Source: a virus
Lineage: Duplodnaviria > Caudoviricetes
DNA length: 64,000 bases
Virus record (IMG/VR): IMGVR_UViG_2706796498_000001
Span: 1-64,000 of that record
Reading direction: 5' to 3' (one strand)
A model generated the notes under the pieces. That model made no database searches, was not told the origin of the DNA, and saw only the letters and a program-made list of their open reading frames with translations. Below are positions 24,715-31,768 of the stretch, piece after piece (within the stretch, counting starts at the first letter, position 1; each line of letters starts with the position of its first letter). A program made the position numbers and the translations under genes.

Positions 24715-24753
24715 TAAAAGCTCACCACCCATATTGGGTAGTGAGCTTCTTTT
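24715..24753. terminator. intrinsic terminator (bidirectional)
   Basis: AAGCTCAC.ACCC/GGGT.GTGAGCTT stem flanked by A- and T-tracts. Confidence 0.8.
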
Positions 24754-25285
24754 ATAAACTTGCGTATTGGTTTACGTGGAATATCAGCAAACAGACTTTA
24801 TTAGGTGACAGCACCTATCAGGCTTACTATTTGTTCGTCAACAAACAGCTCTGATAGCAAATGGCCAAGGCTGGGCTGGGATCGGTACCCACCAACTTTC
24901 ACTAAGCGTAAGCATAGATTGTAATATACATAACTTGTAAATTTAAATACCGTTAGCTACTCATACACCACTGGACTGTTATACACGTGTTACCACGCTT
25001 CATCGGTAACTACCTTAATGAGACCTCCCGCTTTGGGTCATTCGCTTGTTCAAGGCGATTTAACTACGGGTATAGTATTGTGGTTAGCCAGTCCGTGGCT
25101 ACCCTAAATCCTCAAGCTAATTTCCATGATTACCTCCACCCTAGATTTTTTTCTCTAGTTGGTAACACTATTAACTGTTACTAATTGAAATGGCTAAGCT
25201 ATCGTTTAACCACGTCTTAGGTGCTTTATAGGTAATCATGAGGGGCGGGTTTGCAATACCCTTATCCACCCACTTCAAGTTTACA
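24754..25285 (-). ncRNA. large structured ncRNA (~530 nt), ROOL-like candidate
   Basis: no credible ORF; TTGACG-17-TGnTAATAT promoter at 25320-25292; terminator directly after; ends pair (24755-62/25276-83); perfect 11-bp helix 25125-35/25230-40; many hairpins. Confidence 0.65.
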
Positions 25286-25309
25286 TTTATTATATTAACA
25301 TACTAGAGT

Positions 25310-30264: not shown

Positions 30265-30472
30265 GTTTTTACCACCCCCTTAAACTTAATAGTAACATGG
30301 TCAAGCATTTTGTCAATACATTTTTTTAAATTATAATAAATAAAAGCAGGATAGTTAATAACTATCCCACTTAAACAACCTGAACTAATAGCGACTGCAA
30401 AATTTTTACGGGCTAAAAATTATCAAATATCGGTCAGGTTTGCAACGGTTCAACAATATGTTGATGTTGCAA

Positions 30473-30561
30473 CGGAGAATGAGGGATTTGAACCCTCGCA
30501 CCGGTTTCCCGGCCTACACCCTTAGCAGGGGCGCCCCTTCAACCAACTTGGGTAATTCTCC
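30473..30561 (-). tRNA. tRNA-Ser(GCT)
   Basis: GGAGAAT/ATTCTCC acceptor, CCC-CT GCT AA-GGG anticodon arm, long variable arm, GGTTCAAATCC; no encoded CCA. Confidence 0.93.
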
Positions 30562-30636
30562 AAAATGTTGACCCCAAGATCTAGTGGGAATTGAAGTAAT
30601 TAAAAAAGAGAAAGTTTTAATTAAAAGGGTCAACAA

Positions 30637-30709
30637 TGCTAATTACAAGAATCGAACTTGTAACCTCCTGCTTACAAGGCAGGCGCTCTGCCGATTGAGC
30701 TAAATTAGC
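30637..30709 (-). tRNA. tRNA-Thr(TGT)
   Basis: GCTAATT/AATTAGC acceptor, CCTGC-CT TGT AA-GCAGG, GTTCGATT; no encoded CCA. Confidence 0.93.
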
Positions 30710-30760
30710 TTAATGCTAACGCTAAGACTTGTCGGAACTTGTTAGCAGTGTCATCTCATT

Positions 30761-30860
30761 ACCAGCGTCCACTCTTGTCAGGGGGTACGCCTTAGCTGGT
30801 GTTGGAGGACAGTTTAGAGAGATTTTATCACCCGTACCCGAGGGCTCTCCCGCCTGATGG
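30761..30860 (-). ncRNA. GC-rich, multiply pseudoknotted RNA at the 5' end of the tRNA operon
   Basis: five crossing complementary pairs within 100 nt, directly after TTGACA-17-TAATAT (30894-30866). Confidence 0.5.
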
Positions 30861-30898
30861 TTTATATATTACCAAATGTGAACTACAATGTCAACACT

Positions 30899-31420
30899 TT
30901 AGCTTAAATAATTTTGGGGGAATTGGAGATTAGTCCAGTGAGCTTCCACAATATCAGCTAAACGACCCACACCACTCTTTGCGTGATCAAATCTAATTCG
31001 TGATACTGAATTAACGTTTTGATACATCTTCAACACTTCGCTTGGAATCACAAAATCTGGTGAAACAATCAATAGGGAGCGATCAATACTCTTTTGATAT
31101 TCAACCGCACCTTTGAGCTTGCTTGTGGATTCAACACCCTTGACTACCATCTTAGCTACTAAATCAGCAATAGCATTGTAGTCAGTGGTTTGACATTGCA
31201 TACGGAACCCGACCCGAGTTCTACCATAAGGAAACCCACCTGTATCTTCAATTCCGTACAACAGGTTGTTTTCTTTTAGAATTTCTAAAGCATGGCTATC
31301 TGTCTGGTATTGGTAGATAACTACCAGCCCATTAATTCCTACCCCAAAATCAAGATCAACACCATAAACAGGTTCAGTTAGTTTTTGTTGTAATTGTTCT
31401 AAACGCTTGTTCTTACTCAT
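30899..31420 (-). CDS. hypothetical protein
   Basis: 173 aa, AGGTGA RBS. Confidence 0.75.
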   Translation of the reverse strand: MSKNKRLEQLQQKLTEPVYGVDLDFGVGINGLVVIYQYQTDSHALEILKENNLLYGIEDTGGFPYGRTRVGFRMQCQTTDYNAIADLVAKMVVKGVESTSKLKGAVEYQKSIDRSLLIVSPDFVIPSEVLKMYQNVNSVSRIRFDHAKSGVGRLADIVEAHWTNLQFPQNYLS

Positions 31421-31438: not shown

Positions 31439-31768
31439 TTATAGCCCTTGTCGAATGATTCCTTGTTCTACTACGGCGTGTTCAATAGTCTCATCATTAA
31501 TTTCGCTGATATTAAGAGATTTAATTACTTGCAAAATAATCTCTGTAAATCGTTCATGCGCACATTCAATGCTATTTGATTGTGTCTGTAAATATACCCC
31601 GTGAACATCTAAGCCAATGTGAACTAAGCCAAAGTGGTCGTAGTTTTCAACAGCCATATGTTCTGGGGAGTTAGTGTCCCGTAATACGTTGACAAAGGCA
31701 CTGGTGGTTCTTTCGCTTAAAACTGGGAAATTAGTTCCTAAATTCATTCGGTACCAGTGCATGATCAT
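31439..31768 (-). CDS. hypothetical protein
   Basis: 109 aa, AAGGAG RBS, upstream TTGACG promoter. Confidence 0.7.
   Translation of the reverse strand: MIMHWYRMNLGTNFPVLSERTTSAFVNVLRDTNSPEHMAVENYDHFGLVHIGLDVHGVYLQTQSNSIECAHERFTEIILQVIKSLNISEINDETIEHAVVEQGIIRQGL

What the first reader, a model, noticed from the sequence alone, without database searches (positions are those of the whole stretch)
30761..30860. Compact, multiply pseudoknotted RNA leading the tRNA operon
Seen in transcript order: a=UCAGG, b=GGAGAG, c=GGGUACG, b', d=GUCC, e=ACCAGC, c', a', d', e' (plus-strand pairs 30853-57/30778-82, 30845-50/30816-21, 30833-39/30783-89, 30807-10/30767-70, 30795-800/30761-66). c'a' and d'e' are contiguous, suggesting coaxial stacks. 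It is GC-rich in an AT-rich genome. I cannot match this topology to HDV/theta, glmS, pistol or SAM-I folds. Inferred: a new ribozyme, a ligand-binding RNA or an exonuclease-blocking cap.
Basis: partly seen in the sequence, partly recalled or inferred. Interest (0 to 1): 0.7.

Follow-up and report, generated by a model that had tools for sequence, protein, structure and literature searches.

The report
Kissing-loop small RNA heading phage tRNA operon

Summary
All five complementary segment pairs exist at the stated coordinates. In this one sequence they are no more than chance gives: helix counts match shuffles and the MFE z-score is +1.26. Eight distinct homologues from related phage contigs settle the matter. 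Helices b, c and e are kept by compensatory changes. Helix a has none and is broken in two relatives. Helix d is absent from all relatives.

One is g (UGUC/GACA), which extends e. The other is f (UGCUAAC/GUUAGCA), which ends 4 nt before tRNA-Thr.

The real object is a ~150-nt RNA (about 30858-30710, minus strand) with three hairpins. The apical loops of the first two pair over 7 bp, giving one kissing-loop pseudoknot rather than several.

It is the first cistron of an RNA-only operon: an early-type promoter, this RNA, tRNA-Thr, tRNA-Ser and a covarying terminator. In the most distant relative it precedes tRNA-Ile instead.

There is no Rfam match, no second copy in the phage, and nothing credible in 151 Lactobacillaceae genomes.

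Most likely it is a small RNA gene released by RNase P at the tRNA 5' end. Its function is unknown, and ribozyme or aptamer roles are untested. This scan had already reported a ROOL RNA and a second large RNA in the same genome.

The parts
30866..30894 (-). Promoter: TTGACA, 17-nt spacer, TG-extended TAATAT. The -35 box sits in the motif AAAGTGTTGACA, which recurs in this phage.
   Evidence: 10 of 12 matches, TG before the -10. The 12-mer AAAGTGTTGACA recurs exactly at 4 further sites (44664, 51227, 101941, 102312), with overlapping 11-12-nt matches at 4 more sites, two of them in the terminal repeats. The -35 and extended -10 are kept in relatives L040-L050.
30710..30858 (-). The whole leader RNA, about 149 nt. 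It runs from the inferred transcription start to the base before tRNA-Thr +1, the expected RNase P site.
   Evidence: Model R1 matches 30708-30859 (157.5 bits) and the distant L037 at 42.5 bits, E 6e-9. The start is inferred from the -10 position. The 3' end is inferred from the ARAGORN tRNA start.
30817..30851 (-). Its 25-nt loop carries c.
   Evidence: helix 2: 100% of cells paired and 3 of 5 pairs changed on both sides. L037 has ACCCUGU/ACAGGGU at the same place.
30833..30839 (-). c, GGGUACG, in the P1 loop: the 5' half of the kissing interaction.
   Evidence: helix 3: 92.9% paired and 2 of 7 pairs changed on both sides. This helix was not in the model used to align. L037 has CGGUAGGA/UCCUACCG.
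30783..30789 (-). c', CGUACCC, in the P2 apical loop: the 3' half of the kissing interaction.
   Evidence: helix 3.
30749..30811 (-). Hairpin P2. The basal helix g is UGUC 30811-30808 with GACA 30752-30749. The 28-nt apical loop holds c' and the conserved CCUGACAAGAG.
   Evidence: helix 5 (e) has 5 of 6 pairs changed on both sides and is 100% paired. Helix 4 (g) has 3 of 4 and is 96.9% paired. L042 has ACUGGU/ACCAGU extended to 10 bp, and L037 has AGAUAGA/UCUAUCU plus AUCAUC/GAUGAU. RNAalifold returns both helices.
30772..30782 (-). CCUGACAAGAG, an unpaired segment of the P2 loop. CCUGACAAGA is kept in the 60%-identity relative L037 and in four other relatives, with one substitution each in L041 (C to U) and L044 (G to A).
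   Evidence: Alignments. No complementary site elsewhere in the phage genome.
30714..30747 (-). Its loop starts AAGUUCC. Four nt follow before tRNA-Thr.
   Evidence: helix 6: 100% paired, one pair changed on both sides (L037 UGCUACC/GGUAGCA) and one G-U (L042). Predicted independently by MFE in both the window and L037.
30853..30857 (-). Not supported.
   Evidence: helix 1: no pair changed on both sides and 3 pairs depart only by mismatches (L050, L044). No UCAGG-like partner was found in L037 next to P1.
30767..30810 (-). Rejected.
   Evidence: 51.9% of cells paired against 52.1% in shuffles. GGAC is replaced or deleted in all relatives.
30637..30709 (-). tRNA-Thr (UGU), the second cistron.
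   Evidence: 76.3 bits.
30472..30562 (-). tRNA-Ser (GCU), the last tRNA of the operon.
30344..30372 (-). Intrinsic terminator that closes the RNA-only operon: a 13-bp stem followed by a T-rich tail.
   Evidence: The stem covaries in L040 and L041. A new promoter follows at 30316-30289 for the polymerase unit.

Best explanation
The locus is a small RNA gene. A strong host-type (sigma-A-like) promoter starts a roughly 515-nt transcript that holds no protein gene. It reads a ~150-nt structured RNA, then tRNA-Thr, a structured spacer, tRNA-Ser, a conserved trailer and an intrinsic terminator.

The ~150-nt RNA folds into three hairpins:
- P1, 5 bp, with a large loop.
- P2, a long irregular stem made of helices g and e, with a large loop.
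- P3, 7 bp.

Seven nucleotides of the P1 loop pair with seven of the P2 loop. This kissing-loop pseudoknot locks P1 and P2 together. It leaves the conserved segments UAAGG and CCUGACAAGAG exposed on either side of the kissing helix.

RNase P cleavage at tRNA-Thr +1 should release the RNA with a 5' triphosphate and hairpins near both ends, so it should be stable. This is inferred, not shown. I propose that the released RNA acts on its own, for example by binding a protein or another RNA through the exposed conserved loop residues. That would parallel other phage non-coding RNAs made together with tRNAs.

Shown here: the helices, their conservation, the operon layout and the absence from known families. 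Inferred: the transcription start, the RNase P release, the stability and a role in trans.
For: - Homologues: 8 distinct sequences were obtained through the neighbouring 173-aa gene.
- Covariation: 14 of 34 tested pairs change on both sides, against 2.4 +/- 1.3 in shuffles and 1-3 in slid controls. 96.3% of cells are paired against 36-48% when slid.
- The kissing helix c was not in the alignment model, yet it keeps 2 compensatory pairs in L037.
- MFE folding of the window RNA and of the divergent L037 RNA gives the same three hairpins independently. RNAalifold agrees.
- G-U pairs in b, e, g and f fit the minus-strand transcript only.
- The promoter is present and shares its -35 motif with other sites in the phage. 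The terminator covaries in relatives. No protein gene lies in the unit, and only short + strand ORFs (39-44 aa) overlap the leader.
- The RNA precedes tRNA-Thr in the main clade and tRNA-Ile(UAU) in L037. It is therefore tied to the operon head rather than to one tRNA.
- Precedent: phage K lncRNAs lie beside tRNA genes, one of them read from a tRNA gene's promoter (PMC9241854). The T4 tRNA region carries RNA species I and II (PMC2330249, Fig. 1 legend).
Against: - Only 8 distinct sequences are available. Seven are close to each other, and most compensatory changes come from two lineages (L037, L042). No formal test such as R-scape was run.
- Helices b, g, e and f were in the model that made the alignment, which favours them.
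- Single-sequence thermodynamics give no support (z +1.26, +0.59). A loop-loop duplex energy test is not better than shuffled loops.
- No 5' or 3' end, level or strand of an RNA could be read. The runs laid were assembled contigs.
- L037 has no good promoter next to the RNA. There it may be a 3' extension of the upstream mRNA.
- A role in trans has no direct support. No complementary target exists in the phage genome.
Confidence: 0.45

Rival explanations
1. The RNA is a cis-acting leader. The folded domain serves the precursor itself. It could shield the 5' end from 5'-to-3' decay (RNase J1 in Firmicutes) until RNase P acts, keep the first tRNA from misfolding, or present the RNase P site. After cleavage it would be waste.
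For: - It always sits directly before the first tRNA of the operon, with only 3-7 unpaired nt between P3 and tRNA +1.
- The tRNA-Thr/tRNA-Ser spacer also carries a covarying stem, so the whole precursor is shaped by structure.
- From my own knowledge, not checked here: 5' stabiliser elements were first described on early RNAs of SPO1/SP82-type phages of Bacillus.
Against: - A 5' block needs one stable hairpin at the end. It does not need three hairpins, a kissing interaction and conserved unpaired loop segments.
- In the main clade about 7-10 nt precede P1, and the only candidate partner for them (helix a) lacks support.
- tRNAs are stable once processed, so protecting a leader that is cut off anyway offers little.
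Confidence: 0.25
2. The RNA is a catalytic or ligand-binding RNA. It would be either a new self-cleaving ribozyme that defines an RNA end, or an aptamer that senses a metabolite and tunes tRNA output.
For: - Several conserved unpaired segments surround a pseudoknot-type tertiary contact (UAAAC, UAAGG, CCUGACAAGAG, AAGUUCC). That is typical of aptamers and ribozymes.
- Phages do use ribozymes next to tRNAs. Theta ribozymes are proposed to process tRNA 3' trailers (PMC10879173).
Against: - No Rfam ribozyme or riboswitch family matches, even at E up to 10 with permissive filters.
- No expression platform is present. P3 is not followed by a U run, and the only terminator lies beyond the tRNAs.
- No protein gene is controlled.
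- RNase P already makes the tRNA 5' end, so a 5' ribozyme has no obvious job.
- The family is confined to one narrow phage clade.
Confidence: 0.1
3. The RNA self-assembles. The c/c' complementarity acts between molecules rather than within one, joining copies head to tail into dimers or rings.
For: - Covariation cannot tell intramolecular from intermolecular pairing.
- The same phage carries a ROOL RNA. This family is reported to form RNA-only multimers (bioRxiv 10.1101/2024.12.08.627333, abstract).
- Both partners sit in large, flexible apical loops.
Against: - P1 and P2 are joined by only 5-6 nt, so pairing within one molecule is favoured kinetically and entropically.
- Nothing in the data calls for oligomers.
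- There is no Rfam pRNA match, and Herelle-like myoviruses are not known to use a packaging RNA (my own knowledge).
Confidence: 0.07
4. There is no functional structure. The conservation would reflect recent common ancestry plus a GC-rich remnant, for example a decayed tRNA, and the helices would be coincidental.
For: - Seven of the eight sequences are close relatives.
- The single-sequence statistics are at chance level.
- P3 resembles the acceptor and T-arm strands of the adjacent tRNA-Thr (UGCUAAC...ACAAGUUC...GUUAGCA against GCUAAUU...ACAAGUUCG...AAUUAGCA). This hints at tRNA ancestry for that part.
Against: - In L037 all five helices are rebuilt at the same places. Three of them (b, e, g) have largely different sequences, c has two compensatory pairs and f has one, while unpaired blocks stay identical.
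- L042 changes three consecutive-region pairs of e in a compensatory way.
- Slid-partner controls drop from 14 to 1-3 covarying pairs.
- Neither ARAGORN nor the tRNA model sees a tRNA here, even at E up to 10.
Confidence: 0.08

Closest known systems
Stable non-coding RNAs co-transcribed with phage tRNA genes: T4 'RNA species I and II' in the tRNA region (PMC2330249) and phage K lnc001/lnc002 beside tRNA genes (PMC9241854)
   Same: It is a non-coding RNA of unknown function made from the same unit as phage tRNAs. Its ends can be set by the tRNA-processing enzymes. The carrier here is a Herelle-like myovirus, as for phage K.
   Different: No sequence or structure relationship was shown. The RNA here is much smaller than the phage K lncRNAs (about 0.6-1.2 kb) and lies at the 5' head of the operon. 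Its accumulation has not been measured.
ROOL RNA (Rfam RF03087), and GOLLD
   Same: It is phage-borne, linked to tRNA genes, found in Lactobacillales-type phages and of unknown function. A ROOL copy lies 5.4 kb downstream on the same strand (24752-25297, 129.4 bits).
   Different: ROOL is about 550 nt, and this RNA is about 150 nt. The ROOL model does not match here, and my model R1 does not match the ROOL locus.
HDV-like theta ribozymes of gut phages (PMC10879173)
   Same: It is a small pseudoknotted RNA immediately next to a phage tRNA gene.
   Different: Theta ribozymes are proposed to cut tRNA 3' trailers, which by my own reading places them 3' of the tRNA, and this RNA lies 5' of it. The helix order here (P1 hairpin, P2 hairpin, loop-loop pairing, P3 hairpin) is not the nested double pseudoknot of HDV-type ribozymes. 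No Rfam HDV-type model matches.
phi29 pRNA (packaging RNA with complementary loops)
   Same: It is a phage RNA of similar size whose two loops carry complementary sequences.
   Different: From my own knowledge, the pRNA loops pair between molecules over 4 nt and the RNA binds the portal of phi29-like podoviruses. Here the complementarity is 7 bp, is probably intramolecular, and the phage is a myovirus. There is no Rfam match.
Kissing-loop, tRNA-shaped RNA modules that this scan noted in other phages (e1-5849386, STnc100-related)
   Same: These are uncatalogued phage RNA modules in which two loops pair with each other, located in tRNA-rich RNA arrays.
   Different: Those are described as cloverleaves related to STnc100 (RF02076). 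No STnc100 match appears here at E up to 10, and this RNA has no closing acceptor-like stem.

Membership tests
Any Rfam 15 family (4227 models) | A covariance-model score at or above the family's gathering threshold | tested here: not met
   (gathering) found only ROOL and two tRNAs in the window. One search (E up to 10, 701 nt) found no plausible match on the transcript strand over 30710-30860. The only overlapping row is a + strand carA match (30679-30833) at 14 bits against a gathering score of 100.
tRNA or tRNA-like pseudogene | A cloverleaf recognised by ARAGORN or by RF00005 | tested here: not met
   Searches give no call in 30710-30860. Only P3 shows loose similarity to the strands of tRNA-Thr.
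HDV-like / theta ribozyme | Nested double pseudoknot (P1, P1.1, P2, P3, P4 in the HDV order), with the cleavage site at the ribozyme's own 5' end | tested here: not met
   The supported strand order is b, c, b', g, e, c', e', g', f, f'. No Rfam HDV-type match.
HDV-like / theta ribozyme | A position where it can cut the tRNA 3' trailer | tested here: not met
   The element lies 5' of the first tRNA in all eight loci. The family's proposed role comes from PMC10879173.
Kissing-loop (loop-loop pseudoknot) RNA fold | Two hairpins, each supported by covariation | tested here: met
   b has 3 of 5 pairs and e has 5 of 6 pairs changed on both sides, and both are 100% paired.
Kissing-loop (loop-loop pseudoknot) RNA fold | Watson-Crick pairing between the two apical loops, kept by compensatory change | tested here: met
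   c has 2 of 7 pairs changed on both sides (L037) in an alignment not fitted to c. This rests on one divergent lineage only.
Riboswitch | An aptamer coupled to an expression platform (terminator or RBS sequestration) upstream of a regulated gene | tested here: not met
   No terminator-like site lies between the RNA and the tRNAs, and no protein gene lies in the unit. Ligand binding cannot be tested here.
Self-cleaving ribozyme (any class) | Site-specific self-scission | not testable with these tools
   Only assembled contigs were available, so no RNA ends could be read.
tRNA-operon co-transcribed stable phage RNA (T4 species I/II type) | The same transcription unit as the tRNAs | tested here: met
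   By sequence inference only. There is one promoter upstream (30894-30866), no terminator before 30372-30344, and the same layout in relatives.
tRNA-operon co-transcribed stable phage RNA (T4 species I/II type) | Accumulation as a discrete stable RNA | not testable with these tools
   One search gave contigs only.

The most novel reading that the evidence does not exclude
The RNA is the founding member of a new functional class. One possibility is a self-assembling or protein-capturing phage RNA whose kissing-loop clamp displays CCUGACAAGAG to disarm a host factor early in infection. Another is a new small ribozyme or aptamer acting on the tRNA precursor.
Probability: 0.12. Interest if true: 0.8.

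Novelty: new variant of a known kind. Interest (0 to 1): 0.5.

Why it matters
Phages of lactic acid bacteria are already known for unexplained tRNA-linked RNAs such as ROOL and GOLLD. This phage has a ROOL, a second large RNA reported by this scan, and now a compact ~150-nt RNA with a covariation-supported loop-loop contact at the head of its tRNA operon. At this size the RNA can be studied by chemical probing, crystallography or cryo-EM, and it is easy to delete. It therefore offers a simple way to ask why phages package structured RNAs together with tRNAs. For annotation, it shows that the 'leader' of a phage tRNA operon can be a gene in its own right.

Tried and rejected
- Exact 15-mer scan of viral contigs: 35 hits, all chance matches. 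blastn shows nothing beyond the 15-16 nt.
- blastn of the locus against 50,697 GenBank phages: no match. tblastn of the neighbouring protein: none.
- The search for related loci with the 173-aa protein, with DNA polymerase, and with the protein alignment: no relatives in viral contigs.
- Gapped conserved-block patterns: none in viral contigs. The metagenome contigs returned only a copy of L043. The five genome-contig hits are not homologues: the one read (L058) lies in a region that reads as coding, and none of the five has a tRNA nearby.
- Polymerase relatives at 51-54% identity (L053, L054) have no tRNA or leader upstream. L052 does not cover the region.
- Model R2 on 151 Lactobacillaceae genomes: four weak hits (E 0.002-0.07 per genome). 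None is near a tRNA, and the best hit, the one whose c region was compared, has no c/c' complementarity. I judged them chance.
- Read laying on two RNA-labelled, one uncertain and one DNA run: only assembled contigs, so no ends, strand or level. Nothing can be said about expression from this.
- Loop-loop duplex energy against shuffled loops: not discriminating.
- Search for trans targets of the conserved loops in the phage genome: none.
- The 173-aa neighbour has no Pfam or PHROG hit. Its AlphaFold model has pLDDT 38.8 and is unusable, so no fold search was made.
- Hammerhead core, T-loop and type III antitoxin resemblances were considered by eye and dropped. The motifs do not fit and Rfam gives no hit.

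Full report
**Where the element lies.** The window is the first 64 kb of a 106,071-bp virus record with direct terminal repeats. The genome is 38% G+C. It encodes a family-A DNA polymerase about 39% identical to those of Lactobacillus plantarum myoviruses and a tail sheath. One homologue of a neighbouring gene is filed under Limosilactobacillus fermentum. The flagged stretch is on the minus strand. A sigma-70-type promoter lies upstream: TTGACA, 17 nt, TG-extended TAATAT, at 30894-30866. Its -35 box sits in the 12-mer AAAGTGTTGACA. That 12-mer recurs exactly at 4 other places in the phage, with overlapping 11-12-nt matches at 4 more, two of them in the terminal repeats. Downstream come tRNA-Thr(UGU) at 30709-30637 and tRNA-Ser(GCU) at 30562-30472. 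An intrinsic terminator at 30372-30344 closes the unit, and a new promoter then serves the polymerase. The unit is therefore an RNA-only operon. Only short + strand ORFs (39-44 aa) overlap the leader.

**Checking the observation.** Dinucleotide shuffles of the 100 nt give as many helices: 10 against 8.2 for 5 bp or more, 4 against 2.2 for 6 bp or more, and 1 against 0.6 for 7 bp or more. The nested MFE is no better than shuffles, with z = +1.26 and +0.59 for the full 149 nt.

**Finding homologues.** DNA searches of GenBank phages and IMG/VR found nothing. The 173-aa ORF just upstream (30899-31420) has 28 relatives at 60-96% identity over most of their length, plus a few partial hits. Their contigs gave seven further distinct versions of the leader: L040, L041, L042, L044, L045, L050 and the distant L037. 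In all of them the element directly precedes the first tRNA. That tRNA is Thr in the main clade and Ile(UAU) in L037. Phages with polymerases only 51-54% identical lack the tRNA unit at this place.

**The structure.** I built a covariance model from the seven close sequences using only nested helices (R1). It finds L037 at 42.5 bits, E 6e-9. Pairs were then counted on the resulting 8-row alignment:

| Helix | Window sequence | Pairs changed on both sides | Cells paired | Note |
|---|---|---|---|---|
| b | GGGAG/CUCUC | 3 of 5 | 100% | ACCCUGU/ACAGGGU in L037 |
| e | ACCAGC/GCUGGU | 5 of 6 | 100% | ACUGGU/ACCAGU in L042, AGAUAGA/UCUAUCU in L037 |
| g (new) | UGUC/GACA | 3 of 4 | 96.9% | forms the base of e |
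| f (new) | UGCUAAC/GUUAGCA | 1 of 7 | 100% | UGCUACC/GGUAGCA in L037 |
| c | GGGUACG/CGUACCC | 2 of 7 | 92.9% | CGGUAGGA/UCCUACCG in L037 |
| a | UCAGG/CCUGA | 0 of 5 | 87.5% | mismatches in L050 and L044; mostly unpaired at the aligned L037 position |
| d | GUCC/GGAC | 1 of 4 | 51.9% | shuffle level; GGAC missing in every relative |

Helix c was not in the model, so the alignment was not fitted to it. Overall, 14 pairs change on both sides against 2.4 +/- 1.3 in shuffles and 1-3 when partners are slid. RNAalifold returns b, g, e and f. MFE folding of the window RNA and of L037 separately gives the same three hairpins. G-U pairs occur in the sense of the minus-strand transcript, which points to RNA rather than a DNA element.

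**Corrected picture.** The RNA is about 149 nt long (about 30858-30710) and has three hairpins:
- P1 is helix b.
- P2 is helix g, an irregular middle, and helix e.
- P3 is helix f, which ends 4 nt before tRNA-Thr.

Because c lies in the P1 loop and c' in the P2 loop, the one crossing interaction is a 7-bp loop-loop (kissing) helix. Several unpaired blocks are kept even in L037: UAAAC between P1 and P2, UAAGG and CCUGACAAGA flanking c', and AAGUUC...GUCUUA in P3.

**Caveats.** Only eight sequences are available, seven of them close to each other. Most compensatory events come from L037 and L042. Helices b, g, e and f were in the aligning model. No formal covariation test was run.

**What it is not.** No Rfam family matches at gathering score. 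At E up to 10 there is no plausible match, only a 14-bit opposite-strand carA row. It is not a tRNA. There is no second copy in the phage. Nothing credible turned up in 151 Lactobacillaceae genomes. No terminator or protein gene lies behind it that a riboswitch could control. Theta ribozymes are proposed to process tRNA 3' trailers (PMC10879173), and their double-pseudoknot fold (my own knowledge) differs from the one found here. This RNA lies 5' of the tRNA.

**Most likely mechanism.** I read it as a small RNA gene that uses the tRNA as punctuation. It would be transcribed early by host polymerase, and RNase P would free it when it cuts at tRNA-Thr +1. Hairpins near both ends and the kissing clamp should make it stable. 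The conserved exposed loop segments are the likely working surface. The release, the stability and any action in trans are inferred, not shown. Two precedents for non-coding RNAs in phage tRNA units are the lncRNAs of phage K (PMC9241854) and RNA species I and II of T4 (PMC2330249).

**Rival explanations.** These are a purely cis-acting stabilising or processing leader, a new ribozyme or aptamer, intermolecular assembly through c/c', and no function at all. Sequencing runs gave only contigs and say nothing about expression.

**Novelty and score.** This is an uncatalogued, narrowly distributed RNA family of a familiar general kind: phage RNAs of unknown role linked to tRNAs. Earlier notes of this scan report ROOL and a second large RNA in the same genome, and kissing-loop RNA modules in other phages. 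I did not rely on them as evidence. Interest is moderate. The fold is real and tractable, the function is open, and the more exotic readings are unproven.

Noticed in passing
window 24752-25297 (-): A full-length ROOL RNA (RF03087, 129.4 bits, E 2e-26) lies 5.4 kb downstream on the same strand as the tRNA operon.
   Followed up: partly
window 30634-30627 with 30574-30567 (-): A stem, GUUGACCC/GGGUCAAC, brackets the AT-rich spacer between tRNA-Thr and tRNA-Ser. It covaries in L045 (GUUGGCCA/UGGCCAAC) and has G-U variants in L044 and L050. It is probably a processing stem of the precursor.
   Followed up: partly
L050:3849-3933; the same place in L040, L041 and L044 (between tRNA-Thr and tRNA-Ser): Relatives carry an extra tRNA-Tyr(GUA) that the window phage lacks. 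In L040, L041 and L044 the copy is damaged (part of the anticodon arm is missing) and ARAGORN no longer calls it. The tRNA content of the operon therefore turns over while the leader stays.
   Followed up: partly
window 30471-30373 (-): The ~100-nt trailer between tRNA-Ser and the terminator is almost invariant in L040, L041 and L045. It contains a hairpin, UUGCAAC...GUUGCAA. It may be a further small RNA or a processing element.
   Followed up: no
genome C1: 95-106, 44664, 51227, 101941, 102312, 103387, 104012, 105349: The extended -35 motif AAAGTGTTGACA of the leader's promoter recurs, exactly or as overlapping 11-12-nt matches, at 8 other sites. They cluster near the right end and in the terminal repeats, like the early host-takeover promoters of SPO1-type phages.
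   Followed up: no
L042:3182-3356 (P2 apical loop): One relative has a 16-nt insertion that duplicates ACAAGAGUG in the P2 loop. In the same relative, helix e is re-written and lengthened to 10 bp.
   Followed up: no
window 30747-30714 against tRNA-Thr 30709-30637: The P3 strands and the start of its loop resemble the acceptor strands and T-arm of the adjacent tRNA-Thr. P3 may descend from a tRNA fragment. In L037 the neighbouring tRNA is different but P3 is kept.
   Followed up: partly
window 30899-31420 and 31439-31768 (-): The two ORFs upstream of the RNA (173 and 109 aa) are conserved with it. They have no Pfam or PHROG match, and the AlphaFold model of the 173-aa protein was unusable (pLDDT 38.8).
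   Followed up: partly
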